64,000 bases of DNA from a virus, in IMG/VR virus record IMGVR_UViG_3300029413_000164; one strand, written 5' to 3'. Made by a program: the position numbers and the translations under genes. Below the pieces are notes generated by a model. The model had not been told where the DNA came from, did no database searches, and saw only the letters and a list, made by a program, of their open reading frames with translations. This document shows positions 15,243 through 60,078 of this stretch, piece by piece. Each line of letters begins with the position of its first letter. Position 1 is the first letter of the stretch.

Positions 15243-15275
15243 AATCCCGCCGGCTTATTCCGGTGGGGTTTCTTT
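15243..15275. terminator. Bidirectional terminator
   Basis: Hairpin CCCGCCGG...CCGGTGGG with an A-run before and a T-run after. Overlaps the 3' end of the minus-strand XRE gene. Confidence 0.5.
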
Positions 15276-15602
15276 TGTCTTGTGGCTGTCTAATGCATCA
15301 ATCATCTGAAGTATGATGCGCTGCGTTTCTATGTCGAGAGTTGACAGGCGCATGCGAAGCTCTGGGAGAATGCCGTCATCGCGTGGCAGACCTGCTATAT
15401 CATCAAGGGATATGTGGCATCCTTTAGCATATGTAATCAGTATATTTGCACTTGGAATATTAACACCACGTTCGACGGCACTTAAATAGTTTTTGGATAT
15501 ACCGGTTTTGGCCGAAACATCTGTCTGCGACATTCCAGATAATTCTCTGAAATATTTCATACGCTGTCCTAAATCAGTAATATCTGCAATTGGTTTGTCC
15601 AT
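15255..15602 (-). CDS. XRE-family HTH transcriptional regulator (repressor-like)
   Basis: HTH_3 pattern MSQTDVSAKTGISKNYLSAVERG. No element-type promoter upstream. Confidence 0.7.
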   Translation of the reverse strand: MDKPIADITDLGQRMKYFRELSGMSQTDVSAKTGISKNYLSAVERGVNIPSANILITYAKGCHISLDDIAGLPRDDGILPELRMRLSTLDIETQRIILQMIDALDSHKTKETPPE

Positions 15603-15960: not shown

Positions 15961-16896
15961 ATGATCAGAACAACAGGAAAGGTGATCAAAGCAAAAGAAA
16001 ATGAGAAGTATGAATACGATCCTCAAAGAATGAAAGAGATGATCGACTTCTACAACGACGGGGCTGACGAGGAAGAAAAGAAAGAGATTATGCTTTTCTT
16101 CGTTAACTCACTCTATGGTCTTATGGTCGAGGAGTGCAATAAATTTAAAAATTCCCGTTATTCGTTTGAGGAGCTGATGTCTGAGTGTCAGACAGAAGTA
16201 ATCGCAAACATCGGAGGATATGAGCCAATCGGACCAAATGGTGGGTTTAGAAAGCCAAGTACATACTTTGGCTACATAATTAGGCATGCGGTGCAGAGCC
16301 TTTTTAACCCAGAGTCGTTAACGGGGCATTTTGCACACATCGAGAGACAGCTTAAAAAGGCGGCTGCTGAGTATGGTATTCCTTACGAAAAGGAATATAT
16401 CAGACGACTCGCAAAGATAGCCGATGTGTCGTACCAGTCGGCACTGTCTGCTTTTGTACGTTCAAACACGACACATGAGGAGTATAATGGAGAGACAGCA
16501 GAGCAGTCTGAAGATTACGGACAGCCAGAGGTGGTCGCAGCTGAAAAAGCTAAGAGAGAAGCCATAAGGGAGCTTATTGACAGGCTTCCGGTAAGAGAGA
16601 GATATGTCGTAATGCAGGTATACTTCAATGACATCTCGATTGATGAGCTCGTAATTGAAATGTCCAAAGTTACAGGAGAATCTCTGAGCAAAAAGGATGT
16701 TATAAAAATCCAGCGCTCAGCCTTTAACAAGCTCGAACCAATGCTCAGAAAACAGGGTTACGGCGGAAGATGTGGATACTTCCATCCGGTATTTGTCAGA
16801 TCAGATGAGGAGCTCGATGAGGAGATGATGGACATCGCAAACGCATTTGATGACGATGCAGGTTCTACAATCCTTATTAAGTTAAACCTCAAATAA
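15961..16896 (+). CDS. Sigma-70-family-like transcription factor
   Basis: C-terminal segment RERYVVMQVYFNDISIDELVIEMSKVTGESLSKKDVIKIQRSAFNKL resembles the sigma region-4 HTH. The N-terminal half is region-2-like (FFVNSLYGLMVEE). Strong GAAGGAGG RBS. Confidence 0.5.
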   Translation: MIRTTGKVIKAKENEKYEYDPQRMKEMIDFYNDGADEEEKKEIMLFFVNSLYGLMVEECNKFKNSRYSFEELMSECQTEVIANIGGYEPIGPNGGFRKPSTYFGYIIRHAVQSLFNPESLTGHFAHIERQLKKAAAEYGIPYEKEYIRRLAKIADVSYQSALSAFVRSNTTHEEYNGETAEQSEDYGQPEVVAAEKAKREAIRELIDRLPVRERYVVMQVYFNDISIDELVIEMSKVTGESLSKKDVIKIQRSAFNKLEPMLRKQGYGGRCGYFHPVFVRSDEELDEEMMDIANAFDDDAGSTILIKLNLK

Positions 16897-33054: not shown

Positions 33055-33540
33055 TTGAAAAACACAGCATATATGCTAAACAAAAAGATCCATCAGAAAA
33101 TGATGGGTCTTTTTTCTTACGTCAATGCAGAAGAAATCTCAGTTTTTGCTTCAAATAATGTAAATGCCGATATTGTGCTGATGCAGAAAGATATATATTT
33201 AGACCTTACCAATTTTGAAAAATATTTGAAGCGGTCGTTGAAGAACAAAGGTATTAATACAGATAATATAAAAATTCAAACAGGTAACACAGAGACAGAA
33301 GATACAAGCGATTCGGGCACTTCTACAATGTTTAATGAATTTACCGCGCAGAAGGTTGACGTGACAGCTGCGATAACAGCAAAAAGTGGTAACAATATTA
33401 TTACACCTTCTAACAAAGTTTGCGTATATAATAGTATATAATATAATCGCCAAAACGGATTATCAACCGGATGCTAAAGCGGAAGCTATAATATTGGACT
33501 CACACTGACAAAGGAATAAGAAAACGCAGATTAAGGATAT
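33055..33540 (+). pseudogene. Degenerate, frameshifted copy of the shared C-terminal module (remnant)
   Basis: About 85% nucleotide identity over roughly 200 bp to 42964-43170 and 54133-54338. The reading frame is broken after ...KVCVYNSI. Confidence 0.5.
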
Positions 33541-33566
33541 AGCTAATGGCTATATCCTTTTTTTTG
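33535..33566 (+). terminator. Rho-independent terminator (shared-repeat copy)
   Basis: GGATATAGCTAATGGCTATATCC hairpin followed by a T8 run. Confidence 0.6.
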
Positions 33567-33586
33567 AATTTTGATGTTTTTTAGAA

Positions 33587-33615
33587 AAATAAAAATCATA
33601 CTTATATTATAAGAC
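33587..33615 (+). promoter_or_regulatory. Element-type promoter (first of a tandem pair)
   Basis: AAAAATCATACTTATATTATAAG. Confidence 0.5.
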
Positions 33616-33649
33616 AGTATACAATGCCTGAAAAATATAATACTTTTTA

Positions 33650-33705
33650 AAAACTTATATAGAAGGCCATAAATGAAAAATATTTCTATCATACTTATGA
33701 TGTAG
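33650..33705 (+). promoter_or_regulatory. Element-type bipartite promoter (second of the tandem pair) ahead of the RNA gene cluster
   Basis: AACTTATATAGAAGGCCAT, 17 nt, then TTTCTATCATACTTATGATGTAGC. This is the closest match to the consensus. Confidence 0.6.
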
Positions 33706-33823
33706 CGGTGAGAGCCATACATAAAACACAAAACACACTATGCCCACGGTCAAGTCCGTTAAGTTCGTTTTTATGCGAAGAACCGACAGGGAGAAGCAGA
33801 GAGGCGAGAAGAGGCATAATTGT

Positions 33824-33895
33824 CGCAGGATACGTTAACGGCTAACCCCAAGGCTCATAACCTTTGGAATGCGGGTTCAAATCCCGCTCCTGCAA
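33824..33895 (+). tRNA. tRNA-like element with a CAU anticodon loop (possibly degenerate)
   Basis: Good T-arm (GCGGGTTCAAATCCCGC) and acceptor 3' strand, and a CTCATAA loop. The D-arm does not fold canonically. Confidence 0.3.
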
Positions 33896-33920
33896 CTAAG
33901 CCTTAAAAAGCTTTACATCC

Positions 33921-34218
33921 GGGGTTGTAAAGGTTTCGACAGGGTTACAAAAGTGCAGAATTCGCCCGAGTGATGACGCAATCATCAAAACTTAAAATTA
34001 AACGCAAACAATAGATGTTTAGCAGCAGCCTAATGGCTGCACCAAAACGTTCCAAGATAATGCTGGTAGGGGCTGAGGTTCAAAAACAAGCGTGTTAGAA
34101 GTTCTCTGTATACATAGGAACAGAGTGGTGGGCTAGACTGGACTACAGGCGCAAAAACGGCGTAAAGGTTCTGTATGAGTACTAATTCTGGACACGGGTT
34201 CGATTCCCGTCAGCTCCA
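33921..34218 (+). ncRNA. ssrA: tmRNA (SsrA)
   Basis: 5' end GGGGTTGTAAAGGTTTCGACAGGG matches the tmRNA consensus GGGGnnGnnnnGGnTTCGACAGGG. Internal tag-like reading frame ...ANNRCLAAA followed by TAA. 3' tRNA-like end GGACACGGGTTCGATTCCCGTCAGCTCCA. Confidence 0.65.
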
Positions 34219-34240
34219 TATCCGGCATGACCGGGAAAAT

Positions 34241-34312
34241 AGAAGGATAGTGTAAGTGGTAGCACAGTGGTCTCCAAAACCACAAATTTGGGTTCAAATC
34301 CCAATCTTTCTG
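34241..34312 (+). tRNA. tRNA-Trp (CCA)
   Basis: Manual cloverleaf: acceptor AGAAGGA/TCTTTCT, anticodon stem GTGGT/ACCAC with loop CTCCAAA, T-arm TTGGGTTCAAATCCCAA. Confidence 0.6.
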
Positions 34313-34385
34313 CTGCATGGGAAATCCTGTGCAACATAAGCAACCTTTCAAATATGTACAACGTGACAGCAATGCTGCCACGCAT

Positions 34386-34459
34386 GGCTCCGTGGTCTAG
34401 CTGGTTAGTGATACGGCCCTTTCAAGGCTGTGACGCGGGTTCAATTCCCGCCGGAGTCA
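34386..34459 (+). tRNA. tRNA-Glu (TTC)
   Basis: Acceptor GGCTCCG/CGGAGTC, anticodon stem CGGCC/GGCTG with loop CTTTCAA, T-arm GCGGGTTCAATTCCCGC. Confidence 0.6.
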
Positions 34460-34646
34460 TTCTGCCATTGTTTCCATTCTTTTGCGGTGGCAGACTCATA
34501 AAAACCTCATAATTATAAAAGAAGCAGGGCTAAGCTGCTTCGTCTCCCATCTGCCATCAGAGCAGCATTGCAGGTGCAGTTCCTGCAGGGAGATTTTGTC
34601 GGATAAGAAAGGTCTCTGCCGACTATTTTTTGATTCCGGACATTTA

Positions 34647-34720
34647 GTGCCCGTAGCTCAATTGGTTAGAGCATCCGGCTCATAACCGGACGGTCGAAGG
34701 TTCGAGTCCTTCCGGGCGCA
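34647..34720 (+). tRNA. tRNA-Met (CAT)
   Basis: Acceptor GTGCCCG/CGGGCGC, D-arm GCTCAATTGGTTAGAGC, anticodon stem TCCGG/CCGGA with loop CTCATAA, T-arm GAAGGTTCGAGTCCTTC. Confidence 0.65.
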
Positions 34721-34723
34721 TTT

Positions 34724-34773
34724 TATCCAGTACTAAAACTGCCTACCGACTGTTTCGGTACTGGATATTTTTT
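34724..34773 (+). terminator. Rho-independent terminator closing the RNA cluster
   Basis: 9-bp stem ATCCAGTAC/GTACTGGAT followed by a T-run. Confidence 0.6.
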
Positions 34774-35180
34774 ACGATTGCGGAAAAGCAAAACATTGTC
34801 TGCATTAAGCTCATTATAACGGCAAATAATGCAGACGTTTGCTTATGCGTTAGGTTCCTTCTACGAATACATATGGATCATTTATAAATTACCTGACGCG
34901 ATTGCCACAGTCTTTGTTCCGGCTATGTTAAGACTTCCTTCTTAATACTACAGATTAAAACACATTTTTTTAGTGTTGATAATTTCCGGAACGTAATAAC
35001 AATTGAAAAGCAGATATGCCGCAGCTTCCTTCTTTCTCAAAGGTCTGATAAACTTTAAAGTTAGCTGTAACAATCACTGCGAAACAGGCTATGATAGCAG
35101 TTCCTTCTATATGCAATATTGAGGAAAACAATTTTTCACTGCTGTCAATTCCCAGTTTTTATCAAAGGAGAAAATTCATT

Positions 35181-37340
35181 ATGGAAAATTCAGTATTTAG
35201 CATCATTTTAAGAAGAAAAAACAGAGTGTTTATCAATGATAATGATATGCTTAAATCCCTTTCTGGCGCGGCCGGTGAAAAGAATAAGCAGATTGTTGCA
35301 ACAATGAATAAGAACATAGAAGTCTTTGGCTATACAATGTCAGAGGCTCTTTTTGACAAGCTTGTGCACATGAAAGTTAAGAACCGTGAAGTGGTGTATG
35401 ATGCCCTTGTAAACGGACTTAAGGAACTTACAGGTGCTGATAAGGTGTACAATCCAATGTATCCTAATTTCCCTGAATCTGTCATGGAAAAGGATGATTT
35501 TGAACTGTATTTCAATGCTATCGTTCATTACTGGTCTTTTGGCACCCTTCTGCCTTATGAGGAGAAAAAGGAGAGAGTACCTCTTTTTAACACTGCAAAG
35601 GTTAAGGTCCTTGAAGCAGGTTCGTTTGATGACTTAAATGACATCTTTAATAATTTCTGTGCATCAAAGACATCTCTTTCAAAGAGTGATGTGGATGACA
35701 TGGTCTTTATTTTAAATTCAGCAAAGGTTACTTTGCCGGATGAGATTCCGTTTAAGGAGAATACTGCGTGCATATGCAGACTGCTTGTTGATACCGGTGT
35801 TGACACAGATGGCTCTTTATGCAGAAAATACATAAAAACTGCAACTGATGTACTGCGTCTTGTTACAGCAATGTCTGATGGTGACGTCAGTCTTGCAGAA
35901 AACACTAAGTTCAGAAACTTAAAGAGAGGCGAGCGCAGAATTATCATGAACCTGCTTGCAGGCTGTGGAAATGCAGCTGAGGATATGAGCAGATATGCCG
36001 GAAGATGGATCCGTGTAGGCGAAAAACTGCACCCGGGTGAGTTTGCTAAGAATGAGCGCTATACAAAAGTTGTTCAGGCATTTGGCGTCATAAGAAATGA
36101 TGGTAAAATTCAGTCGTTTGCAGGCAGAATGGATGCGGCTGTTGCGTCAGGCGATGTAAACACCGTTGTTTCCCTGCTTAAAAAGCGCCCGGGAGAGTTT
36201 GCAAGAAGAATTGATTTTCTTCTTCGCACATTTGACAAGGATGCCGACAGAAAGGCTGTTATCATGGGCTTTGCTTCTGTTGCAAAGGATGTATCGTCTA
36301 CAGTACTTTTGCAGGTAAGAGAGCATTTTATCAATAAGCTTGACGGCAGTGATGACATGAGGGTTTTCTTTCCAAAGGGAAATCTTGCAAGGTCATACTA
36401 TGTCAAGAATGACAAAACAGAGGCTATTCCTGAGGATGCAATGATAATGGTTATTGCTGTCTGCGAGAATGCGCTTGTCAATATATATGGAAGTAGGGCA
36501 TTTCTTGGAAAAGTGTATATTGACAAGGCTCTTAGAAACTACACAGTACCGTTTTCGTTAAGAAGCGCGGGCAAGACAATGACCGCTGTTTCAAGAGGCT
36601 CACGTATTGCAATAGACGACAGTGTAAAGATTATCAGACCATTCATCTGGTGGACTAATACCAAGAATAATATTATTGATGTTGACCTGTCAGTAGCAGT
36701 TTTTGCTGACAACTGGGATTGTCTTGAGCATGTATCATATACAAATCTCAAGTCAAGTAGGTTTGGAATCTGCCACTCTGGTGACATTACAAATGGCGGA
36801 CCTGTTGACGGAGAAGGTGTGGCTGAGTTTATCGACCTTGATATTGAGAAAGCTTTATCTGCAGGTGCGAGATATGCGGCATTTAACGTGTACAATTTTT
36901 CAGATGAGAATTTCTCGAAAATGGAGCATGCAGCTTTTGGCTTTATGACGAGAAATGATATGAAGAGCGGGGAAATCTTTGAGCCGTCTACAGTAAAACA
37001 GCGAATGGACCTTGCATCAGCAACAACCACATGCATTCCGGTCATTTTTGACCTTAGGGAGAGGGTGCTCATATGGTGTGACATGGCTCTTACCGCTGAC
37101 CATGTGCGTGCTGGATACGGCGGAATCAATGTGGAGAGCAATCTGCCATCAGTAGTCGTTACCTGTAAGGCTATGGTTGATGTTAAAAAACCTAATCTGT
37201 ATGACCTGTTTACATTCAATGCTAAGGCAAGGGGTGTCATTACCGACAATCCGGATGAAGCAGACATAAGATTCGGTCTTGATGATAACTGCGATGTAAA
37301 ACCAAGTGATATTGATGTTATCGTTGGCAAATATCTGTAG
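35181..37340 (+). CDS. Large TerD-domain protein, 719 aa
   Basis: C-terminal HSGDITNGGPVDGEGVAEFIDLDIEK...AAFNVYNF matches the TerD/TerZ Ca-binding core (SGDnxtGeGdGDDE). The roughly 480-aa N-terminal region is unassigned. RBS AAGGAG. Confidence 0.55.
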   Translation: MENSVFSIILRRKNRVFINDNDMLKSLSGAAGEKNKQIVATMNKNIEVFGYTMSEALFDKLVHMKVKNREVVYDALVNGLKELTGADKVYNPMYPNFPESVMEKDDFELYFNAIVHYWSFGTLLPYEEKKERVPLFNTAKVKVLEAGSFDDLNDIFNNFCASKTSLSKSDVDDMVFILNSAKVTLPDEIPFKENTACICRLLVDTGVDTDGSLCRKYIKTATDVLRLVTAMSDGDVSLAENTKFRNLKRGERRIIMNLLAGCGNAAEDMSRYAGRWIRVGEKLHPGEFAKNERYTKVVQAFGVIRNDGKIQSFAGRMDAAVASGDVNTVVSLLKKRPGEFARRIDFLLRTFDKDADRKAVIMGFASVAKDVSSTVLLQVREHFINKLDGSDDMRVFFPKGNLARSYYVKNDKTEAIPEDAMIMVIAVCENALVNIYGSRAFLGKVYIDKALRNYTVPFSLRSAGKTMTAVSRGSRIAIDDSVKIIRPFIWWTNTKNNIIDVDLSVAVFADNWDCLEHVSYTNLKSSRFGICHSGDITNGGPVDGEGVAEFIDLDIEKALSAGARYAAFNVYNFSDENFSKMEHAAFGFMTRNDMKSGEIFEPSTVKQRMDLASATTTCIPVIFDLRERVLIWCDMALTADHVRAGYGGINVESNLPSVVVTCKAMVDVKKPNLYDLFTFNAKARGVITDNPDEADIRFGLDDNCDVKPSDIDVIVGKYL

Positions 37341-41636: not shown

Positions 41637-43130
41637 ATGAATATCAAGAGAAGAATAACAGCAATAGGACTGATATGTAGTCTTATGGTACTGATTTTTG
41701 GAGGACAAAGCCCTGCAACTGTAATGGCAGATGATACTAAAATAGTAGAAGCTGTTAATCATTCAGGACCTTATTGGAGTAACGGTGGCTCATGGAATAG
41801 TTGGAAAAATTGGTATATTAACAAAGGATATACTATCATGGGATCTGGGAAAACAACATTATGGTGGAATAAAAAATATTATGAAGCATGGTGGTTGGGA
41901 GTCAAAGATAAAAACGGAAACATGAAATGGGCTTTATTGTTTGATAGTGTTCAAACAACTTCAGGCAATTATATTACTCGATATGATGCATGGATGCCGG
42001 TACGCGAGGGAAATGACATAGTCTGGTACTATTTAGATGATGAAGGGCTCACATACACTAATACGTGGTTACATACAAGATGTGTAGATTCAAATTATAA
42101 ATCTTCAGATAAACATGGTTATTTTTATTTTAACGGAAGTGGCAAGTTACAAACAGGATGGCTTCGGGACAGCAGCGGCGGATGGTACTATTCAGATAGT
42201 ACAGAGGGCAGCGTAAATCCCGGCATAAGCGAACATGGCGGATTGACTTGGACAATGATAAAAAACCAAACGTCATACGAGAAAGATGGCCTTTATAGTA
42301 ATGGATTATATTATCTTAACGGCCTGAATGTTGTAACAAACGTGTATAGAATGAACACTAATGGCTCTTATGATTATATAGGAAACACAGTAAACAATAT
42401 CAAAGTTGGAGATGGCAATGACCAAATAAATCCCCTAAAAGAAAAGACGATAAATGCAGATACAGATTACGTAAATAAACAGATTTATAATTCAAAAGGA
42501 TTGTTTATTAATGCAAATGCAGAAGGAAGCTGTACTCAGCAACAAAATCTGGCTTTGAAAAATAATAATTATAAACAGATAAAAATCAATGAATTTACAT
42601 ACTATATTGACAGGAAAAAATTTACTTTGACTCAAAATATAAATAGTGATGCAGAAACAACTAAAACATCATCAATATATTTTGAAGGCGCAACAACCAT
42701 TGAAGATCCATCTGTCAAGGCAGGATATACATTTACTACATGGAATCTACAAGGGAATGGAAGTGAATTGAATGGCAGGACATTTATAATGGGAGATGAG
42801 GATGCTATTCTTACTGCACAGTGGAAGTATAATACTATTCATGTTAAGATACCCCAGACTCTTATTGGGGATTCAAAAGGTAACAGTTCATTTCGTGTTA
42901 AATGTGACGACTTAAAAGCTGGTAACATCAAAGTGACAGTTCCAAACAGCCTTCTATATAAGCAGGCTGGCAAGACTGACATAACAGCTGCAATAACAGC
43001 AAAAAGTGGTAACAATACCATTACACCAACAAATAAGGTTTGTGTATACGATATAGCCACCACTAACGGATTATCAGCCGGATGCTGGCAGGGAAGCTTT
43101 AACATAGGACTCACGCTGACAAAAGAATAA
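41637..43130 (+). CDS. Secreted protein with cell-wall-binding repeats and the shared C-terminal module (receptor-binding/adhesin-like)
   Basis: Signal peptide. Repeats of the choline-binding/cell-wall-binding type (GWLRDSSGGWYYSDS, WYYLDDEGL). The last roughly 100 aa are shared with the 52996-54297 product. Confidence 0.55.
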   Translation: MNIKRRITAIGLICSLMVLIFGGQSPATVMADDTKIVEAVNHSGPYWSNGGSWNSWKNWYINKGYTIMGSGKTTLWWNKKYYEAWWLGVKDKNGNMKWALLFDSVQTTSGNYITRYDAWMPVREGNDIVWYYLDDEGLTYTNTWLHTRCVDSNYKSSDKHGYFYFNGSGKLQTGWLRDSSGGWYYSDSTEGSVNPGISEHGGLTWTMIKNQTSYEKDGLYSNGLYYLNGLNVVTNVYRMNTNGSYDYIGNTVNNIKVGDGNDQINPLKEKTINADTDYVNKQIYNSKGLFINANAEGSCTQQQNLALKNNNYKQIKINEFTYYIDRKKFTLTQNINSDAETTKTSSIYFEGATTIEDPSVKAGYTFTTWNLQGNGSELNGRTFIMGDEDAILTAQWKYNTIHVKIPQTLIGDSKGNSSFRVKCDDLKAGNIKVTVPNSLLYKQAGKTDITAAITAKSGNNTITPTNKVCVYDIATTNGLSAGCWQGSFNIGLTLTKE

Positions 43131-43175
43131 AGAAACGCAGATTAAGGGTATAGCTAATGGCTATATCCTTTTTCA
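42964..43175 (+). repeat. Shared gene 3'-end plus terminator module, copy A
   Basis: About 200 bp at roughly 85-90% identity to 54133-54340 and 33360-33566, including the GGTATAGCTAATGGCTATATCC terminator hairpin. Confidence 0.65.
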
Positions 43176-43177
43176 TT

Positions 43178-43205
43178 GAAAAAAATATCATACTTATAAT
43201 GACAA
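43178..43205 (+). promoter_or_regulatory. Element-type promoter
   Basis: AAAAAATATCATACTTATAATGAC upstream of the 43254 start. Confidence 0.5.
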
Positions 43206-43253
43206 ATTTAAAATAAATCACAAAAGAGGATTTTGTGGGGAAAGGAAGAAAAA

Positions 43254-46200
43254 ATGATGAATTTCAGAGATGAATTGAAGAAAATGAGATTCAAAAAGAA
43301 ACCGCGTGATGGTAAGAAGCATGATCTGTCAACACCGGGCAGGAAGACCGTTTTGTCAGCCGGAGCTGTTCTCATAGCAGGCGGACTGCTTACAGCGGGA
43401 ATTCTTAATGCAAATACGGGTGCTTATACAAGCAGCTTTTTGTCTGACAACAGCAGTTCGCGTAAAATAACCAACGAGAACTACGACTATAAAATGGCAG
43501 ACAAGCACCTTATCGTAAAAAGCGCTTCAAGTCTCAAAGAGTCTGACGGATACAAAAAGATTGCTGATGGGCTGTATCTTGTGGACAAGGATAAAGAGCT
43601 TGATGGAAGCGTTACAACATATGAGGATGGAGATGTTGTAGTCGCTGATGCTGAGGATGATGAAGTGAATCCTGAAGAAGATGTGGATACAGGTGACAAG
43701 ACTGAGAATACAGAAATATCAGGCGAGACACCTGATGATAACAATACCGATGTTGGTGATGTAAAAGAAAACGATAAAACTAATGAATCGGCAGAGTTGA
43801 CTGACAATGAAAATAATGATGAAAGCACCGCTGATAAAGACACAGAAAAAGAAATTGTGCTTAAAACAGATGAGAGTGAGTCAAAAACACCAACATCAGT
43901 TACTGAAAGTGCATACAAAGAATCAGAAAAACAACTGAAGGAAGTTGAAAAAATAAACGAATGCTCAAAACTTGATAAATATTTGTCAACATTGACATTC
44001 GACAATGATATTAAGATAGCCGTTGTAGACTCGGGAGCGACTGTAGATAGTGACAGAGTTCTTAATGGAGCCAATTTTTCAGCAACGGGAGACAGACTCA
44101 GTATTGCAGATGACAACGGACATGGCTCGAAAGTTACAGAATTAATGCTCGAAAACACACCAGACAATGTATCTATATTGCCAGTCAAAGTAGTTGACAG
44201 CACAGGACATGGTACGCTACTGTCCTTATATCAAGGTATTGAATATGCAATAGAACAGAAAGTGGATATAATTAACATCTCACTTGCATCAAAGGCAATT
44301 GATACAGGATTGATTCAGAAAGCTGTCAATGATGCGAGAAATGCGGGTATTTTAGTAATAGCAGCCGCAGGAAATGACAACTCTGATGTTAAAAACTATG
44401 TGCCAGGCAATGTCAACGGCGTTATGACTATTGCTGGTATTGATGAGAATAACAATATAGCCCAATATTCAAATTATGGTAACACGATTAGCTATGCAGC
44501 TAACGGCGTTTATAAAGAGTATAAAGGAACATCTTTCGCTGCAGCAAGAGTTTCAGCCGTCGCAGCAATGATAAAAAGCAATAATAAAAATAATGATATT
44601 GAAAGTATTCTTGATAGATATGTATACAATCCAAAGATTGACAAAAAGTATATTGGCCGTGGAATGATTACTTTATCAGGAAAAATTACTGCAAATAAAG
44701 AAAAAGAGTTAAAAGAAAACGTTCAGGCAAAATTAGACGATTGGGAAAGTATTTCAGACAAAAAGGTGAATGATATTATCAAAGACATGCCTGCTGATGA
44801 GATAGCTTTTTTCTGGCAGTCGCTAACCGAAGAAAAGCAGAAAAAACTTTTAGAAAGATGCGCATATCTTAATCAGGATGTTACTATTAGCAACAAAGAT
44901 GGAGTACAGACAAAATCATTTGCTGAATATTTAAACAGCAATTTTACATTTGACGATACCGCGACAGCTGGTTGGGAACAGCAGACCATGTGGGATCAAA
45001 GCCGTGGATATTTCTGGTGCTGGGTAGATTATAGTGGCGCAAAGTGCTGGTATAAAATAGATGTGTCATTATCAAGAACAGACTCTATAAATGGTAATAT
45101 GACATTTGCTTCTAGTTTTTATTCTGGTACAAACGTTGCAACTATAAGCTGCGCAAATGGACAGACTAATGGTCATAATTATGCAGGTGGCACGACTGTA
45201 ACGGCAACGCCTAAGACGGGATATTTTATAAAAAACGGTGGTAATTATGGCTCTGGTGCTGTATCGACATGGTGTAACATAGGATGTTTAACAAACGCAG
45301 GATTTACATGTTCAAACAATGCATATCATGATTGGAAGACACGTCCGTGGAATAGTGATTCAGATATTAAATTTGTCGGAGCGCCGGGACTTCATGCAGA
45401 ATTTGATGTCGGAGATGCCAAAAATGCAACATGTACAGTCAATATGGATCCTACTTTAAGCGGAAAGGTCATCAACGGCGGAGGCGGACGAAAAGATTTT
45501 ACATTTGATGTATATAGTGGCAGCAATAAAATAAAAGATCGGGTTTACGATTTTAATGAAGATGTAGAGTATGGTTCTCATTTGTATATTAAAAGTGTAA
45601 GTGCACCAACAGGCTACCATATTACAGGTGACGATAAGGGTACTTACAACTTGGGAGTAATAAAAGAAAATAAAACAGGAAGCAAGACGATATACAAACC
45701 AAATATAGAGCCAAATACATACAATGTGGCTTATGAACAGAATAAACCATCGGACAAAATGCTTGATTACTACAAACCGTATGGTTCTACTGCAACAACA
45801 AAAGGCTGCACATATGGTGTTACGAACTACATTAGTTCATGCGGATATACCATGCCGGGTTATTCATTTAAAAACTGGAATACGGCTTCAAATGGCAGTG
45901 GAAAAACATACAATCCCGGGGATTCATTCACGGCTCTTACAAGTACAAACGGTGAAACAGTACATCTTTATGCTCAATGGACAAAGAACAGCTACACAAC
46001 ACACTTTGATCTGAATGGCGGTTCGGGCTATGCTCCTGACCAGACTGTTGCATATGGCGAAAATGTATCTCTTCCTATGGATGGATTTTCCAAGGAAGGT
46101 AAAACATTTATCGGATGGTCTTTAACTGCAAATGACATTGGTTCAACAGTACAGTCATTAAGGTCTGGCTTTTCATATGTCAATATGTATAAGACGGAGA

Positions 46201-48719
46201 CAAAATACTTTGACTCTCCGCAGGATGTAACACTCCATGCGATGTACTCAATTCCTGTATCGGATGTAAAATCTGTACAGTTGCGCGTGTTGCAGAAGAA
46301 TGGCCCACAGATGGATGTTAAGTCTATTTCAGATGTTAGCTTCCACAAGGACGGAGAAGCCTTCTACTCATTTATAGGAGCTTACAAACTTGTTCAAATG
46401 TTAAACTCTTCAGGCGGATATTATCAGGCTTACAACAACTATTATTGTAATCTTGGAGCCGACATTATAGCAACAGACAATGCTGGAAATGTTGGAACTA
46501 TCTGGAGGCTTGAACTTAATGGTGCAAACAATCCTGATCCGCCAGCACCTGAATACAGAACAGTTAAAACAGATCACTATATGTACAAGTATAAACTGGC
46601 AAGAAACAATAGTGGATTTGAATACTACGATACGACTGACGGCCAGCAGGTTCTCAAAGGAACAAGTTATGAGGCAGGTTTCCTGAATGAAAAGTCGAAT
46701 CCAAGGATTCCTGACGGATATGAACCGGTGCGCATGACTGTTAAGTTTCAGGATGTTCAGGGAGCTTCAGAAAGTGATATTATGAACAAATATAACGGCG
46801 ATAATGATGTTGATAATATATCTATAACTGAAAACACCTTCTATTCTGCATACTACATGCCGAAACAGTACAAAGTACATTTTAAGACTGCTTCAAATGA
46901 GTCTTTTATCAAAAACAAAAACGCTGATAACAGAAATTCAAAGTCATATCTGTATACAAACAATGAAATGCCTACAATGAACATTCATTATACAGAAGCC
47001 TTTGAAGAACTTCCATCAGCATCAAAAACCGGACACACATTCACAGGATGGTTTGTACTTGATGAAAATGGAAATGATACAGGCGTACAGATTAAGAAAG
47101 ATGAACCTTTTAATTATACCCGTGATATAACTGTAGTCCCTCACTGGGAAATTAACAGTTATAAGATTACTTATGACGCAGCAACAAACGGCGGCGTACT
47201 GTCAGGAAAGTCGTCTGAGTCGGTGCAGTATAATTCAAAAGTAAATATAGACACAAATAACTACAGTGCAGCAAAAGACGGTTTTAAATTCCTCGGATGG
47301 AACACCAATCCAAAAGCTACAGAAGTCAAGGGCGGCGTCTTTGAGGACGGCGCAAAAGTGCTTAATAACGGCAGGATGCCTGATAAAGACATAACGGTTT
47401 ATGCAATATACAGCCGTACTGTCACAGCAAAATTCTACAGTGCTTATTCGCAGGGAGAGCCTTATGAAATCGCACCTTCAGGAACACTTACTGACACTAT
47501 CAGCGTGACATACTACAATACTGATACATCAGGCGAAATTACAGCTCCAAAGTCAAAACAGGGAAACCTCGACTGGACATTCTGTGGATGGTCTACAGAG
47601 AACAACTGGAATTCACCTATTGCAATAGTGGCCGACAATAAGATAAGTATCAGCAAAGACACAGACTTTTATGGGCTGTACCAGAAAAATGTAACACTGA
47701 GTTACGAAAGCAACTGCGATGCGTCAGTTGACCCAATGACAGGAACAGCTTATTTTAATGCAGCTCCCGATGGAAAACAGGGTGACTATAAAAAGAATTT
47801 TGAAGGAAATCTTGACAGCTCACTGCAGAGCAATGAAGCAAACAGTTTCGTTGGCTGGGTACAGACGTTCCCGCAGACAAACTGTGCTGTATGCGGAAAC
47901 CCTACAAAGGACAGTATCATAGGTACAATCGACACAAGCGTTAACGGCTGTAAATGTAAGTGTTTCTATCCAAACAGCGGATATAAGAACAAGCGTCAGG
48001 ATGGATGTACATGTTGCTTTATGGCAAATGATGCATTCAGCATTGACCGTGATACAACTGTTGCTGCAAGATGGGATGCATATCCAACAATCAGTGCAAA
48101 GGATACTTATATCTCAGTTCAAGAAAAGAATGATTTTGAGAAAAAACTCCTTGACTCAGCGGAGTCAAATGATAACGAGGATGTTACAACACCAATAGTT
48201 ATACAGAATAAGAATGAGATTAAGAAAATCATAAACGGCACTGATGAAAATGTTGATGTGACAGTTATTTACAAAACAACTGATTCATATGGAAACATTA
48301 CAACAGAGAGCAAGATGCTTCATGTCATAAACACGGCATCAAAAGAAGCTGCAAACACATCATATGCAAGATTCATCAATACAAAAGCAAAGAACGCTTC
48401 TTACAATATGGGTGGACTTGAAGAAAATTCACTATGGCTCACAAAACAGTCATACAAAGATACGTTAAACACAGCTCTTTCAAATGCTGATAGCGTAAAG
48501 GGTAAAAAGATGGATACCGCTAATTCATATCTTCTTGGAAATGGAAAGGCATACAAGCCACAGTACGTACTTAAATACACAAACAGTGATATAAAGGCAA
48601 TAAAGAAATATCTGAAAAATAACGGATATGGAAAATTCCAGTCATCTACTGACATGGACAAAGGAAGCAGTATATTAAAGGACTACTTCAAGACATATGT
48701 TGAAGCATACGAAGAATAA
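43254..48719 (+). CDS. Giant secreted/anchored protein (about 1820 aa) with a subtilisin-like S8 peptidase domain and Listeria-Bacteroides-type repeats
   Basis: Catalytic triad context (VVDSGA, HGS, GTSFAA). Several ...NGGSG...F.GW... repeat units. N-terminal TM/signal segment and a D/E-rich linker. Confidence 0.6.
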   Translation: MMNFRDELKKMRFKKKPRDGKKHDLSTPGRKTVLSAGAVLIAGGLLTAGILNANTGAYTSSFLSDNSSSRKITNENYDYKMADKHLIVKSASSLKESDGYKKIADGLYLVDKDKELDGSVTTYEDGDVVVADAEDDEVNPEEDVDTGDKTENTEISGETPDDNNTDVGDVKENDKTNESAELTDNENNDESTADKDTEKEIVLKTDESESKTPTSVTESAYKESEKQLKEVEKINECSKLDKYLSTLTFDNDIKIAVVDSGATVDSDRVLNGANFSATGDRLSIADDNGHGSKVTELMLENTPDNVSILPVKVVDSTGHGTLLSLYQGIEYAIEQKVDIINISLASKAIDTGLIQKAVNDARNAGILVIAAAGNDNSDVKNYVPGNVNGVMTIAGIDENNNIAQYSNYGNTISYAANGVYKEYKGTSFAAARVSAVAAMIKSNNKNNDIESILDRYVYNPKIDKKYIGRGMITLSGKITANKEKELKENVQAKLDDWESISDKKVNDIIKDMPADEIAFFWQSLTEEKQKKLLERCAYLNQDVTISNKDGVQTKSFAEYLNSNFTFDDTATAGWEQQTMWDQSRGYFWCWVDYSGAKCWYKIDVSLSRTDSINGNMTFASSFYSGTNVATISCANGQTNGHNYAGGTTVTATPKTGYFIKNGGNYGSGAVSTWCNIGCLTNAGFTCSNNAYHDWKTRPWNSDSDIKFVGAPGLHAEFDVGDAKNATCTVNMDPTLSGKVINGGGGRKDFTFDVYSGSNKIKDRVYDFNEDVEYGSHLYIKSVSAPTGYHITGDDKGTYNLGVIKENKTGSKTIYKPNIEPNTYNVAYEQNKPSDKMLDYYKPYGSTATTKGCTYGVTNYISSCGYTMPGYSFKNWNTASNGSGKTYNPGDSFTALTSTNGETVHLYAQWTKNSYTTHFDLNGGSGYAPDQTVAYGENVSLPMDGFSKEGKTFIGWSLTANDIGSTVQSLRSGFSYVNMYKTETKYFDSPQDVTLHAMYSIPVSDVKSVQLRVLQKNGPQMDVKSISDVSFHKDGEAFYSFIGAYKLVQMLNSSGGYYQAYNNYYCNLGADIIATDNAGNVGTIWRLELNGANNPDPPAPEYRTVKTDHYMYKYKLARNNSGFEYYDTTDGQQVLKGTSYEAGFLNEKSNPRIPDGYEPVRMTVKFQDVQGASESDIMNKYNGDNDVDNISITENTFYSAYYMPKQYKVHFKTASNESFIKNKNADNRNSKSYLYTNNEMPTMNIHYTEAFEELPSASKTGHTFTGWFVLDENGNDTGVQIKKDEPFNYTRDITVVPHWEINSYKITYDAATNGGVLSGKSSESVQYNSKVNIDTNNYSAAKDGFKFLGWNTNPKATEVKGGVFEDGAKVLNNGRMPDKDITVYAIYSRTVTAKFYSAYSQGEPYEIAPSGTLTDTISVTYYNTDTSGEITAPKSKQGNLDWTFCGWSTENNWNSPIAIVADNKISISKDTDFYGLYQKNVTLSYESNCDASVDPMTGTAYFNAAPDGKQGDYKKNFEGNLDSSLQSNEANSFVGWVQTFPQTNCAVCGNPTKDSIIGTIDTSVNGCKCKCFYPNSGYKNKRQDGCTCCFMANDAFSIDRDTTVAARWDAYPTISAKDTYISVQEKNDFEKKLLDSAESNDNEDVTTPIVIQNKNEIKKIINGTDENVDVTVIYKTTDSYGNITTESKMLHVINTASKEAANTSYARFINTKAKNASYNMGGLEENSLWLTKQSYKDTLNTALSNADSVKGKKMDTANSYLLGNGKAYKPQYVLKYTNSDIKAIKKYLKNNGYGKFQSSTDMDKGSSILKDYFKTYVEAYEE

Positions 48720-48741
48720 TTTTTTTTGTATCACACAATTA

Positions 48742-48774
48742 GCAGGAGACCGTTCGCGGTCTTCTGTTTTTTTG
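48742..48774 (+). terminator. Rho-independent terminator
   Basis: AGACCG TTCG CGGTCT hairpin followed by a T7 run. Confidence 0.6.
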
Positions 48775-48957
48775 AGTGAATAAAAAAAGATTAGTCATAT
48801 TTGTCAGTGGAATGAAATGAGGTTTGTGAATTATTATATGTACTATCAAATTATAAATTGATAGTAAATTAGTGCTATACTCCTACGCATAAATATGCTA
48901 TACTATATGTAGTGTTTTTTTTAAAGACAAATTCAGATATATGCCCGAAAAAGAAAA

Positions 48958-49016
48958 AAATCTTATATAGAAGGCCATTCGCAAAAATGAAATCTAACAT
49001 ACTATATATGTAAAAA
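48958..49016 (+). promoter_or_regulatory. Element-type bipartite promoter
   Basis: TCTTATATAGAAGGCCATTCG, about 17 nt, then AAATCTAACATACTATATATGTAAAA. Confidence 0.6.
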
Positions 49017-49074
49017 AGGAACAGATTTTAGTTCCATGAAACACAGATCAGATTGAAGAGAAGGAGAAATATCA

Positions 49075-50586: not shown

Positions 50587-50607
50587 AAGCAGTAAATGCT
50601 ATAGAGG

Positions 50608-50643
50608 ATAAGACATCTCTTTTTGGGATGTCTTATTTTTTTA
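50608..50643 (+). terminator. Rho-independent terminator
   Basis: AAGACATC...GATGTCTT hairpin followed by a T-run. Confidence 0.6.
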
Positions 50644-50644
50644 A

Positions 50645-50672
50645 AAGAAAAAATCATACTTATACCGTAAGT
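50645..50672 (+). promoter_or_regulatory. Element-type promoter
   Basis: AAAAAATCATACTTATACCGTAAG upstream of the 50707 start. Confidence 0.5.
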
Positions 50673-50706
50673 AAAATTTACAAATATCTAAGAAAGGAGG
50701 ATTTTT

Positions 50707-52956: not shown

Positions 52957-52995
52957 GACGGAAACACAAAAATCAGATATCTGACGAGATTAAGC

Positions 52996-60042: not shown

Positions 60043-60078
60043 TATTTGCTGCAAAAACGTTCTTTTAAAGGAGAAATC

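What the first reader, a model, noticed from the sequence alone, without database searches (positions are those of the whole stretch)
33587..34775. Tandem element-type promoters drive an RNA gene cluster containing a tmRNA and at least three tRNAs
The tmRNA is called from the near-consensus 5' end GGGGTTGTAAAGGTTTCGACAGGG, a tag-like frame ending ...LAAA, and a tRNA-like 3' end ...GGTTCGATTCCCGTCAGCTCCA.
- It is followed by tRNA-Trp(CCA), tRNA-Glu(TTC) and tRNA-Met(CAT).
- A further tRNA-like element with a CAU anticodon loop lies upstream of the tmRNA.
- The cluster is closed by a strong terminator.
- The same promoter class used for protein genes directly controls stable RNA genes. That is good evidence the motif is a genuine promoter.
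- An element-encoded tmRNA is uncommon. It suggests the element manipulates ribosome rescue or supplements host translation.
Basis: partly seen in the sequence, partly recalled or inferred. Interest (0 to 1): 0.6.

Follow-up and report, generated by a model that had tools for sequence, protein, structure and literature searches.

The report
Phage-borne tmRNA and tRNA operon
A very common, probably giant, virus of human-gut bacteria carries its own small operon of translation RNAs: a ribosome-rescue tmRNA, a start-type tRNA and three other tRNAs, placed behind two copies of the virus's own promoter-like motif. This is a real feature, but it is a new example of something already known in large phages.

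Summary
ARAGORN and Rfam both call a one-piece tmRNA (33921-34218; 93 bits against a cut-off of 47; tag ANNRCLAAA) and four tRNAs. Terminators lie on both sides of the cluster.

The upstream "tRNA-like element" is a true tRNA with initiator hallmarks. The last CAU tRNA looks more like tRNA-Ile2 than tRNA-Met.

The tmRNA belongs to a lineage of tmRNAs found in tRNA arrays of large-phage-like contigs (L025, L145, L125). Against these relatives, 13 of 53 base pairs show compensatory changes and none is broken. Its first pseudoknot is reduced to a hairpin. It also lacks a 70-100 nt 3' insert that two relatives carry.

The "element-type promoter" is a lineage-specific CATACT core behind an A-run. 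It occurs 14 times in 64 kb, against 21 times in 1.35 Mb of relatives. It comes with or without an upstream CTTATATAGAAAG box, and the RNA cluster has one of each in tandem. A divergent sigma-70-family gene lies at 15961-16896. Promoter activity itself remains inferred.

No SmpB is encoded in the window.

Phage tmRNAs are uncommon (about 2% of phage genomes) but well documented, especially in huge phages. I classify this as a new member of a known kind, of modest interest.

The parts
33533..33566 (+). Intrinsic terminator closing the upstream gene. It isolates the RNA unit from read-through.
   Evidence: 12-bp stem, 3-nt loop, TTTTTTTGAAT tail.
33585..33605 (+). Promoter-like site P1: an A-run followed by ATCATACTTAT, with the CATACT core at 33597-33602. 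It belongs to the box-less class. The inferred start is near 33609.
   Evidence: Exact 11-mer. Same layout (terminator, A-run, motif) as sites at 1015, 3120, 31440, 41594, 43187 and 50653 upstream of protein genes. Conserved in MT835874.
33654..33666 (+). Upstream box CTTATATAGAAGG belonging to P2. It is a possible activator or sigma region-4 contact.
   Evidence: The box motif has 19 hits with up to 2 mismatches, against 2.75 expected. It lies 21-23 nt upstream of the CATACT-containing motif in at least ten promoter-like sites.
33683..33698 (+). Promoter-like site P2: ATCATACTTAT with the CATACT core at 33690-33695. It belongs to the box-containing class. The inferred start is near 33702.
   Evidence: Exact 11-mer. 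Same layout as the sites before the DNA polymerase, helicase and HU genes. Conserved in MT835874.
33699..33823 (+). 5' leader of about 125 nt, to be removed by RNase P.
   Evidence: Only 1 substitution and one 7-nt indel against MT835874. No Rfam match. Weak predicted structure, z = -1.7.
33824..33896 (+). tRNA(CAU) of initiator (fMet) type.
   Evidence: ARAGORN. RF00005 scores 44.2 bits. C1xA72 mismatch, G2-C71, C3-G70, G11:C24, and G30-C40/G31-C39 in the anticodon stem (alignment). Similar CGCAGG.../TGCGGG...GCAA tRNAs occur in relatives.
33921..34218 (+). One-piece tmRNA, 298 nt, with no encoded CCA.
   Evidence: ARAGORN. RF00023 scores 93.1 bits. 53 proposed pairs are 100% paired in 6 sequences, and 13 show changes on both sides. 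Helices are kept in 4 lineages.
34004..34033 (+). Tag reading frame GCA AAC AAT AGA TGT TTA GCA GCA GCC TAA, giving (A)ANNRCLAAA. The stop codon sits in the loop of helix 5.
   Evidence: ARAGORN. Helix 5 is at 34025-34029/34036-34040. The only change in the frame among strains is the synonymous AAT to AAC.
34049..34093 (+). H-type pseudoknot of the tmRNA 3' domain. S1 is 34049-34053 with 34069-34073. S2 is 34060-34064 with 34089-34093.
   Evidence: Three pairs change on both sides and four on one side between the window and L025, and none is broken. The pairing also holds in L145.
34241..34313 (+). tRNA-Trp(CCA).
   Evidence: ARAGORN. RF00005 scores 63.2 bits.
34385..34460 (+). tRNA-Glu(UUC).
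   Evidence: ARAGORN. RF00005 scores 57.1 bits.
34461..34646 (+). Structured 186-nt spacer ending in a weak terminator-like hairpin plus U-run (about 34597-34632). Its function is unknown. It may attenuate expression of the last tRNA.
   Evidence: Minimum free energy -61.1 kcal/mol, z = -3.9, 0 of 200 shuffles as stable. No Rfam or relaxed-ARAGORN call.
34647..34720 (+). Elongator-type tRNA(CAU). ARAGORN calls it Met, but it is more likely tRNA-Ile2 (lysidine, reading AUA).
   Evidence: RF00005 scores 71.3 bits. C4-G69 and C5-G68 are present. The best long matches in the E. coli collection are tRNA-Ile with a CAT anticodon, 80% identical. AUA makes up 35% of Ile codons in the window.
34724..34774 (+). 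Intrinsic terminator closing the RNA unit.
   Evidence: RNAfold hairpin followed by AUUUUUU.
15961..16896 (+). Divergent sigma-70-family protein. It is a candidate reader of the CATACT promoters, and this link is inferred.
   Evidence: phrog_351 'RNA polymerase sigma factor', E 1.5e-8. TIGR02937, E 7e-10, 38.8 bits, below the cut-off of 42.9. Weak Pfam Sigma70_r4_2 hit.

Best explanation
This is a stable-RNA operon of a large phage that is very common in the human gut. The genome is probably huge: contigs carrying the neighbouring gene (95-100% identical forms of its protein) reach about 320 kb. The host is probably a Firmicute, possibly in the Lachnospiraceae.

Inferred transcription: it starts at two tandem promoters of the phage's own type. 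The core is CATACT behind an A-run. P1 has no upstream box and P2 has the CTTATATAGAAAG box. Host core RNA polymerase probably reads them with a phage sigma factor such as the one encoded at 15961-16896. The transcript of about 1.1 kb ends at the hairpin/U-run at 34724-34774.

Inferred processing, from general tRNA biology: host RNase P and a 3' endonuclease cut out five RNAs, and the host CCA-adding enzyme completes them, because none encodes CCA.

Shown products: an initiator-type tRNA(CAU), a compact one-piece tmRNA, tRNA-Trp, tRNA-Glu and a second CAU tRNA that is probably tRNA-Ile2.

Inferred tmRNA function: it is charged with alanine (G3.U70, A73), enters stalled ribosomes with SmpB (not encoded in the window, so presumably the host's), adds the tag (A)ANNRCLAAA and releases the ribosome. 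This keeps translation capacity available for the phage while host mRNAs decay or are cleaved.

The tRNAs add start capacity (fMet) and decoding capacity. AUA, for example, makes up 35% of the phage's Ile codons.
For: RNA genes: ARAGORN and Rfam calls.

The tmRNA is under selection for its fold:
- 53 pairs in 9 helices are 100% paired across the window, 4 strain variants and L025.
- 13 pairs change on both sides, against 0-2 in structures slid by 1-3 columns and 2.4 +/- 1.4 in shuffles.
- The helices also hold in L145, and most of them in L125.
- Within the species, U41 to C turns a U.G pair into C-G, and the only change in the tag frame is synonymous.

Alanine identity elements G3.U70 and A73, the T-arm and the UUCGAC motif are present.

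Phage context:
- DnaE-type polymerase, SSBs, RecD-like helicase, CobS/CobT-like pair.
- The neighbouring 749-aa gene has homologues in jumbo phages XacN1, Xoo-sp13 and SCTP-2 and in IMG/VR contigs of 8-461 kb, most of them over 100 kb.
- Same-strand tRNA arrays sit within 1.5 kb upstream of that gene in 32 of 75 relatives, and a tmRNA lies within the 8-kb flanks in 4 of 80.

Promoters:
- Enrichment and placement of the motif.
- Lineage specificity: 14 per 64 kb against 21 per 1.35 Mb in relatives.
- Both copies conserved in MT835874.
- A sigma-family ORF in the window.
- Terminators on both sides.

Literature: tmRNA and SmpB occur in huge phages (PMC7162821), and 2.3% of phage genomes carry a tmRNA (PMC9004378).
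Against: - No transcript data exist. Promoter activity, start sites and the sigma assignment are all inferred, and the sigma ORF scores below NCBIfam's curated cut-off.
- Pseudoknot 1, which matters in E. coli, is reduced to a 5-bp hairpin with at most 2-3 extra pairs. The 3' domain holds one proven pseudoknot and one hairpin, so activity cannot be taken for granted.
- No smpB was found in any ORF of 50 aa or more scanned in the window. Compatibility with host SmpB and AlaRS is untested.
- A terminator-like hairpin at about 34597-34632 may limit expression of the last tRNA.
- No virion genes lie in the window, so 'phage' rests on homologues and on database labels. An integrase, an ImmA-like gene and a Cro/C1-type HTH gene leave a phage-plasmid or temperate lifestyle open.
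Confidence: 0.72

Rival explanations
1. The repeated motif is not a phage-specific promoter. It could be an ordinary host sigma-A promoter variant, with -10 read as CATACT or as the following TATRAT. It could also be a binding site for a regulator or nucleoid protein at operon boundaries, with the RNA cluster transcribed by unmodified host polymerase.
For: - The sigma-70 scan gives weak 9/12 matches that use the TAT of the motif as the start of a -10 (33580-33608, 33673-33701).
- CATACT matches TATAAT at 4 of 6 positions, including A2 and T6.
- The related tmRNAs in L025 and L125 sit behind classical TTGACA/TTGAAC-N17-TAxxAT promoters.
- The sigma ORF is below the curated cut-off.
Against: - The 8-11 nt core is invariant over about 20 sites, which is atypical of host sigma-A promoters.
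- No -35 hexamer is conserved at 17 nt.
- The hexamer downstream of CATACT is not conserved.
- The motif is about 14-fold denser here than in relatives.
- The copies lie 17-54 nt (two at 90-116 nt) upstream of SD+ATG and directly follow terminators.
Confidence: 0.2
2. The five RNAs serve mainly as spare parts rather than as a general translation supplement. They would replace host initiator tRNA, tRNAs and tmRNA that are cleaved or depleted by host defence nucleases, toxin-antitoxin systems or phage-induced shut-off.
For: - Trp and Met/fMet are single-codon families, so codon-bias compensation cannot explain those tRNAs (one search gives usage).
- The set combines start (fMet) and rescue (tmRNA) functions.
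- Initiator-like CAU tRNAs recur in relatives.
- The literature proposes that phage tRNAs evade tRNA-targeting defences (PMC10264068, abstract as listed).
Against: - No defence or nuclease context was examined or found.
- The AUA-rich codon usage (35% of Ile) fits simple supplementation for the last tRNA.
- Nothing here distinguishes the two uses.
Confidence: 0.15
3. The tmRNA is a recently captured host ssrA gene or an attP-type remnant, as seen in phages that integrate into ssrA, and it has no function for the phage.
For: - Phages often integrate into ssrA and carry fragments of it (PMC9004378).
- A tyrosine recombinase is present at 56869-58152.
Against: - The gene is full length, with both ends of the acceptor stem.
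- It lies 22 kb from the recombinase.
- It belongs to a lineage shared with other contigs that carry tRNA arrays. Compensatory changes across that lineage point to long-term selection.
- It is 100% conserved in six assemblies.
Confidence: 0.04
4. The locus encodes a permuted two-piece tmRNA (Rfam RF04321 match at 33840-34033).
For: RF04321 scores 51.0 bits, above its gathering score of 47.
Against: - The match is built from the anticodon arm, T-arm and 3' acceptor strand of the upstream tRNA plus the 5' half of the standard tmRNA.
- The inter-piece acceptor pairs are flagged as non-canonical.
- The one-piece model scores 93.1 bits over its full length, with its own matching 3' strand, and all 7 acceptor pairs form and covary.
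Confidence: 0.01

Closest known systems
Bacterial one-piece tmRNA (SsrA; Rfam RF00023) acting with SmpB in trans-translation
   Same: - tRNA-like domain with G3.U70 and A73
- UUCGAC D-loop analogue
- long helix 2
- Ala resume codon after an A-rich stretch
- short tag ending in Ala-Ala
- stop codon in the loop of helix 5
- at least one H-type pseudoknot 3' of the tag
   Different: - It is encoded on a phage-type element behind a phage-type motif.
- It is only 298 nt long.
- Pseudoknot 1 is reduced to a hairpin.
- The 3' domain has one proven pseudoknot plus a hairpin instead of three pseudoknots.
- The tag ends LAAA rather than the common ALAA.
- CCA is not encoded.
- No smpB lies nearby.
Phage-encoded tmRNAs. 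These include huge phages (Al-Shayeb et al. 2020, PMC7162821), the two-piece tmRNA of OM43 phage Melnitz and the survey finding 402 of 18,146 phage genomes with a tmRNA (PMC9004378). From my own knowledge, not checked here, they also include cluster C mycobacteriophages such as Bxz1.
   Same: A complete tmRNA gene sits in or next to a tRNA array of a large phage genome. The presumed role is to keep ribosomes available during infection.
   Different: - It belongs to a separate sequence lineage, shared with IMG/VR and metagenome loci L025, L145 and L125.
- It is one-piece and has no riboswitch.
- It lies directly downstream of an initiator-type tRNA.
- It is placed behind a lineage-specific motif, whereas its relatives use sigma-A-like promoters.
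The phage T4 tRNA gene cluster (own knowledge)
   Same: Several stable RNAs are co-transcribed from phage promoters as one precursor and matured by host RNase P, 3' nucleases and the CCA-adding enzyme.
   Different: T4 has no tmRNA and no initiator tRNA in its cluster. The promoter type is different.
Phage sigma-directed promoter classes, for example SPO1 gp28 and gp33/34 or T4 gp55 late promoters. The CATAC-type -10 of the sporulation sigmas E and K is a resemblance only. All of this is from my own knowledge.
   Same: A short, nearly invariant -10-like core is repeated before many phage operons. A sigma-family gene is encoded by the phage.
   Different: The core sequence (A-run plus CATACT) and the optional box 21-23 nt upstream match none of these published consensus sequences exactly. 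No biochemical link to the sigma ORF exists.

Membership tests
tmRNA, one-piece (RF00023) | Covariance-model score above the curated threshold over the full model | tested here: met
   93.1 bits against 47, model positions 1-374, E 6e-35. ARAGORN also calls it.
tmRNA, one-piece (RF00023) | tRNA-like domain: 7-bp acceptor stem with G3.U70, discriminator A, and a T-arm GGGUUCGAUUCCC | tested here: met
   All 7 acceptor pairs and all 5 T-arm pairs form in 6 sequences, each helix with one compensatory change. G3.U is invariant in 4 lineages.
tmRNA, one-piece (RF00023) | Tag reading frame starting at an Ala resume codon and ending at a stop in or near helix 5 | tested here: met
   The frame runs from GCA at 34004 to TAA at 34031-34033, in the loop of a 5-6 bp helix. 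Relatives encode ANNEVRMAA and ANNEFAMVA at the same place.
tmRNA, one-piece (RF00023) | Pseudoknot PK1 upstream of the tag and PK2-PK4 downstream | tested here: inconclusive
   - PK1: only a 5-bp hairpin at tmRNA positions 51-55/63-67, which covaries, plus at most 2-3 further pairs.
- Downstream: one H-type pseudoknot supported by covariation and one hairpin.
- A 70-100 nt insert present in L145 and L125 is absent here.
tmRNA, one-piece (RF00023) | Works with SmpB and is charged by AlaRS | not testable with these tools
   No SmpB domain was found in any window ORF scanned with Pfam. The rest of the genome and the host are not available.
Permuted two-piece tmRNA (RF04321) | The 3' acceptor strand of the upstream piece pairs with the 5' GGGG of the coding piece | tested here: not met
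   The 51-bit match exceeds the 47-bit cut-off, but its acceptor pairs are flagged as non-canonical. The upstream piece is the independent tRNA at 33824-33896.
Bacterial initiator tRNA (fMet) | Mismatch at 1:72, G2-C71, C3-G70, and a purine11:pyrimidine24 pair | tested here: met
   C1xA72, G2-C71, C3-G70 and G11:C24, read from the Rfam alignment. The determinants themselves are taken from my own knowledge.
Bacterial initiator tRNA (fMet) | Three consecutive G-C pairs (29-41, 30-40, 31-39) in the anticodon stem | tested here: not met
   Only G30-C40 and G31-C39 are G-C. Position 29-41 is A-U.
tRNA-Ile2 (CAU anticodon modified to lysidine) | CAU anticodon on an elongator body with C4-G69 and C5-G68, and resemblance to annotated tRNA-Ile(CAT) | tested here: met
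   Acceptor stem GUGCCCG/CGGGCGC. The best long matches in the E. coli collection are tRNA-Ile with a CAT anticodon, 80% identical. AUA is 35% of Ile codons.
tRNA-Ile2 (CAU anticodon modified to lysidine) | Modification by TilS and charging by IleRS | not testable with these tools
   No isotype-specific model or experiment is available. ARAGORN labels it Met by anticodon alone.
Phage-specific (sigma-directed) promoter | Over-represented, strand-biased, intergenic motif at a fixed short distance upstream of genes | tested here: met
   17 occurrences against 2.5 expected. 12 are intergenic on the + strand, although about 88% of the window is coding. Eight of the ten next to protein genes lie 17-54 nt before the start codon. 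The related AACATACT spelling is found at 9 more operon starts.
Phage-specific (sigma-directed) promoter | Mapped transcription start and dependence on a cognate sigma factor | not testable with these tools
   The only indirect evidence is a sigma-70-family ORF at 15961-16896 (E 7e-10, below the curated cut-off).

The most novel reading that the evidence does not exclude
The operon could be a dedicated translation take-over or counter-defence kit. A phage sigma factor would switch on, from two promoter classes, a phage-made initiator tRNA together with a streamlined tmRNA. The unusual tag end (LAAA, with an internal Cys) and the minimal pseudoknots would then be adaptations: either to escape host nucleases or proteolytic adaptors, or to rescue ribosomes stalled by defence-triggered mRNA or tRNA cleavage. 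On this reading it is more than a copy of the host function. It would also define a lineage of compact tmRNAs specific to huge phages.
Probability: 0.12. Interest if true: 0.65.

Novelty: new member of a known kind. Interest (0 to 1): 0.3.

Why it matters
The element is among the commoner large phage-like sequences in human-gut assemblies. Proteins 95-100% identical to the neighbouring gene's product are on record on hundreds of contigs, up to about 320 kb long.

A phage tmRNA with clear evolutionary support for its fold offers a natural minimal tmRNA, with no full PK1 and fewer 3' pseudoknots. That makes it useful for structure-function work.

The pairing of an initiator tRNA with a tmRNA behind a well-defined, lineage-specific promoter motif gives a testable handle on how huge gut phages reprogram translation and transcription.

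Practically, the CATACT motif and its box can be used to annotate operons in this phage. The RF04321 false positive is a caution for automated RNA annotation wherever a tRNA sits directly upstream of a tmRNA.

Tried and rejected
- An exact 24-mer from the tmRNA 5' end found nothing in IMG/VR.
- Single-protein scans with the 749-aa neighbour found no close relative in IMG/VR or in GTDB genomes. No host could be read from an integrated copy.
- The search for homologous proteins returned only variants at least 92% identical, which was useless for diversity. The representative library and an alignment-based scan were needed instead.
- The 20-mer around the resume codon is not phage-specific. It also retrieved many tmRNAs with other, mostly longer tags that look bacterial.
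- Permuted tmRNA was rejected.
- No extra tRNAs turned up in the spacers. Relaxed ARAGORN settings gave only implausible calls.
- BLAST of the two CAU tRNAs against phages gave mixed or generic annotations that do not decide identity.
- A PDB sequence search with the sigma-like ORF found nothing meaningful.
- For the 749-aa neighbour, the AlphaFold model (pLDDT 86.8) and Foldseek against PDB found one significant match. It covers about 186 alignment columns and is to a 170-residue protein of unknown function, 2qng. There was no RNA-related fold, so I dropped the idea that it processes the adjacent tRNAs.
- The link of MT835874 to the Mexican VLP virome paper (PMC8361208) could not be verified from the text.
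- A literature search on the SCO0854 family gave nothing useful.
- The Jug phages (PMC12880540) were considered and rejected as the identity of the element. Their GC content is 27-30%, against about 39% here.
Full report
**Observation.** ARAGORN finds five RNA genes in the whole 64-kb window, all between 33824 and 34720 on the + strand:
- tRNA(CAU) at 33824-33896
- tmRNA at 33921-34218, tag ANNRCLAAA*
- tRNA-Trp(CCA) at 34241-34313
- tRNA-Glu(UUC) at 34385-34460
- tRNA(CAU) at 34647-34720

Rfam at curated thresholds agrees. RF00023 tmRNA scores 93.1 bits against a cut-off of 47 over the full model. The four tRNAs score 71.3, 63.2, 57.1 and 44.2 bits against a cut-off of 29.

**Boundaries.** A strong terminator (12-bp stem plus T-run, 33533-33566) ends the upstream gene. 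A long hairpin followed by AUUUUUU (34724-34774) closes the cluster. The consensus scan missed the second one only because of its loop length. Between the upstream terminator and the first tRNA lie two exact copies of ATCATACTTAT, at 33595 and 33688. None of the five genes encodes CCA.

**The tmRNA.**
- The acceptor stem GGGGUUG/CAGCUCC carries G3.U70 and discriminator A. These are the alanine identity elements, as I know them from the literature.
- The UUCGAC motif, the T-arm, the long helix 2, a GCA resume codon after UUAAAAUUAAAC, and a stop codon in the loop of helix 5 are all present.
- The RNA is short, at 298 nt.

*Finding relatives.* The neighbouring 749-aa protein belongs to a family of about 2,900 clusters at 50% identity. 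An alignment-based scan of IMG/VR returned 80 loci on contigs of 8-461 kb, most of them over 100 kb. Four of these carry a tmRNA. The tmRNA in L025 (tag ANNEVRMAA, 312 nt) is clearly homologous to the window's, at 78% identity. A metagenome scan with the 20-mer around the resume codon added four strain variants of the same phage. It also added two more lineages inside tRNA arrays: L145, whose tag is really ANNEFAMVA, and L125.

*Covariation.* I wrote out a structure of 53 pairs in 9 helices and counted it on six sequences.
- 100% of cells are paired.
- 13 pairs change on both sides. Structures slid by 1-3 columns give 0-2, and shuffles give 2.4 +/- 1.4.
- The changes fall in the acceptor stem, T-arm, helix 2a, helix 2b (six pairs), both stems of an H-type pseudoknot (34049-34093) and a further hairpin.
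- These helices also hold in L145, and all but the pseudoknot stems hold in L125, where the alignment is disturbed by an insertion.
- Within the species, U41 to C converts a U.G pair to C-G, and the single change in the tag frame is synonymous.

*Reduced parts.* PK1 is only a covarying 5-bp hairpin with at most 2-3 further pairs. The window and L025 also lack a 70-100 nt 3'-domain insert found in L145 and L125.

*The RF04321 hit.* The Rfam 'permuted tmRNA' match (51 bits against 47) is an artefact. It is built from part of the upstream tRNA plus the 5' half of the normal tmRNA, and its acceptor pairs are non-canonical.

**The tRNAs.**
- The upstream CAU tRNA has the initiator hallmarks C1xA72, G2-C71, C3-G70 and purine11:pyrimidine24 (G11:C24). 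It has only two of the three anticodon-stem G-C pairs. Similar CGCAGG/UGCGGG...GCAA tRNAs recur in relatives.
- The last CAU tRNA has an elongator body with C4-G69 and C5-G68. Its best long matches in the E. coli collection are tRNA-Ile genes with a CAT anticodon, 80% identical. AUA is 35% of the window's Ile codons, and several relatives carry tRNA-Ile(UAU). I therefore think tRNA-Ile2 is more likely than tRNA-Met. No isotype model was available to settle it.
- Relaxed ARAGORN settings show no further credible tRNA in the spacers.
- The 186-nt spacer before the last tRNA is unusually structured (z = -3.9). It ends in a weak terminator-like hairpin.

**The element.** The window encodes:
- a DnaE-type polymerase, two SSBs, a DnaQ-like exonuclease, a RecD-like helicase and a primase-like protein
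- a CobS/CobT-like AAA+/VWA pair, HU, and an SPFH protein
- large S8-peptidase and Listeria-Bacteroides-repeat proteins
- an IS200/IS605 insertion
- a tyrosine recombinase, an ImmA-like protein and a Cro/C1-type HTH protein

No SmpB and no virion gene is in the window. The 749-aa neighbour has homologues in jumbo phages (XacN1, Xoo-sp13, SCTP-2, Weasels2 and a 485-kb uncultured phage). Its AlphaFold model gave no RNA-related fold.

The sequence is very common in gut assemblies. The exact neighbour protein is indexed in 48 blocks of the collection. Proteins about 95% identical to it are on record on hundreds of contigs, the longest 322 kb. GenBank holds 95-99% identical 'Bacteriophage sp.' contigs from human faeces.

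GC content of about 39%, strong GGAGG ribosome-binding sites and TnpB relatives lying almost entirely in Lachnospiraceae and other Clostridia point weakly to a Firmicute host. It is not one of the Jug phages, whose GC is 27-30%.

**The promoter motif.**
- The 11-mer occurs 17 times with up to 1 mismatch, against 2.5 expected.
- 15 are on the + strand and 12 are intergenic, in a window that is about 88% coding. Of the ten intergenic copies next to protein genes, eight lie 17-54 nt before a start codon and two lie 90-116 nt before one. Seven follow a terminator and an A-run.
- The invariant core is CATACT. A second spelling, AAAAAACATACT, marks nine further operon starts.
- A second motif, CTTATATAGAAAG, has 19 hits against 2.75 expected. 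It sits 21-23 nt upstream of the CATACT-containing motif at at least ten sites. These include the sites before the polymerase, helicase and HU genes, and P2 of the RNA cluster.
- So there are two sub-classes, and the RNA cluster carries one of each in tandem. I infer that this allows expression whenever either class is active.
- The motif is lineage-specific: 14 per 64 kb here against 21 per 1.35 Mb in relatives. There is no exact 11-mer in relatives L011-L090.
- The homologous tmRNAs in L025 and L125 sit behind classical sigma-A-type promoters.
- ORF 15961-16896 is a divergent sigma-70-family protein: PHROG E 1.5e-8, and TIGR02937 E 7e-10 but below the cut-off. It may read these sites.
- Both promoter copies, the box and the 125-nt leader are conserved in the 95%-identical strain, while the sequence further upstream is not.
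- All of this is sequence-level evidence. Activity has not been shown.

**Mechanism.**
- Shown: the genes, their folds and their arrangement.
- Inferred: transcription from P1 and P2, maturation by host RNase P, a 3' nuclease and the CCA-adding enzyme, and alanylation of the tmRNA followed by SmpB-dependent rescue with the tag (A)ANNRCLAAA. I also infer that the tRNAs top up initiation, AUA decoding and other decoding capacity.
- Rivals: a non-phage-specific reading of the motif, a mainly counter-defence 'spare parts' role, a captured or decaying ssrA, and a permuted tmRNA. The last two are effectively excluded.

**Comparison and novelty.** tmRNAs in phages are uncommon. A survey found them in 402 of 18,146 genomes, or 2.3% (PMC9004378). 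They are nevertheless well documented, notably together with SmpB in huge phages (PMC7162821). This locus is therefore a new member of a known kind. The points of some interest are:
- a compact tmRNA lineage shared by contigs that carry tRNA arrays, with covariation support
- the direct pairing with an initiator-type tRNA
- a clean, lineage-specific two-class promoter motif with a candidate phage sigma factor
- the high prevalence of the element in the human gut

Noticed in passing
window 33654-33666, also 8570(-), 17842(-), 17918, 22564(-), 23392, 28911, 32639, 48962, 58856, 59018: A second over-represented motif, CTTATATAGAAAG, has 19 hits against 2.75 expected. It lies 21-23 nt upstream of the CATACT-containing motif in a subset of promoter-like sites (polymerase, helicase, HU and others). 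A related TATATGGAAA/TATATAGAAA also follows CATACT directly at some sites. This suggests two promoter classes or an activator site.
   Followed up: partly
window 15255-15602 (-) and 15961-16896 (+): A Cro/C1-type HTH gene is divergently arranged with a divergent sigma-70-family gene. That gene is itself preceded by ATCATACTTGT at 15834. This may be a regulatory switch for the promoter class.
   Followed up: partly
window 6003-7554: An IS200/IS605 element (TnpA Y1 transposase plus TnpB) is inserted in the element. The closest TnpB relatives, up to 88% identical, are almost all in Lachnospiraceae and other Clostridia genomes. This is a weak hint to the host.
   Followed up: partly
window 34461-34646: The 186-nt spacer between tRNA-Glu and the last tRNA folds much better than shuffles (-61 kcal/mol, z = -3.9). 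Its first 130 nt are almost unchanged in the 95%-identical strain. It matches no Rfam family and ends in a terminator-like hairpin plus U-run.
   Followed up: partly
window 33699-33823: The 125-nt leader between P2 and the first tRNA is as conserved as the RNA genes (1 substitution and one 7-nt indel against MT835874). It has no Rfam match and only weak predicted structure.
   Followed up: partly
window 35091-37340 and loci L011-L090: Homologues of this 749-aa protein (NCBIfam RING_SCO0854 family, phrog_33734) are widespread on large IMG/VR contigs. Same-strand tRNA arrays lie within 1.5 kb upstream in 32 of 75 loci, and all 367 tRNA/tmRNA genes in these loci are co-oriented with the gene. The AlphaFold model (pLDDT 86.8) has one significant PDB match, to the 170-residue protein of unknown function 2qng. 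The protein's function is unknown.
   Followed up: partly
L049 2595-2681; L063/L064 371-444; L065 361-438; L088 6409-6483: Several related large-phage loci carry tRNAs with a CUA anticodon, which ARAGORN labels 'Pyl'. These are candidate amber suppressors, which hints at stop-codon recoding in parts of this clade. The window itself reads well in the standard code.
   Followed up: no
window 33840-34033: Rfam RF04321 (permuted tmRNA) passes its gathering score here (51 against 47 bits). It does so only because a tRNA lies directly upstream of a standard tmRNA, which makes this a false positive that annotation pipelines could report.
   Followed up: yes
window 56869-58152, 60046-60836: A tyrosine recombinase, an HNH endonuclease and an ImmA/IrrE-like peptidase are present. 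These features fit a temperate or plasmid-like lifestyle for this large element.
   Followed up: no
L025 about 6750-6785; L125 (reverse strand) upstream of its tmRNA: The homologous tmRNAs of related phages sit behind classical TTGACA/TTGAAC-N17-TAATAT/TATAAT promoters. The promoter type in front of the tmRNA has therefore been exchanged between lineages.
   Followed up: partly
window 41637-54297: A run of large genes encodes an S8 subtilase (1828 aa) and several proteins with Listeria-Bacteroides repeats. Three of them are preceded by the box-less ATCATACTTAT motif. They may be surface, virion or host-interaction proteins.
   Followed up: no
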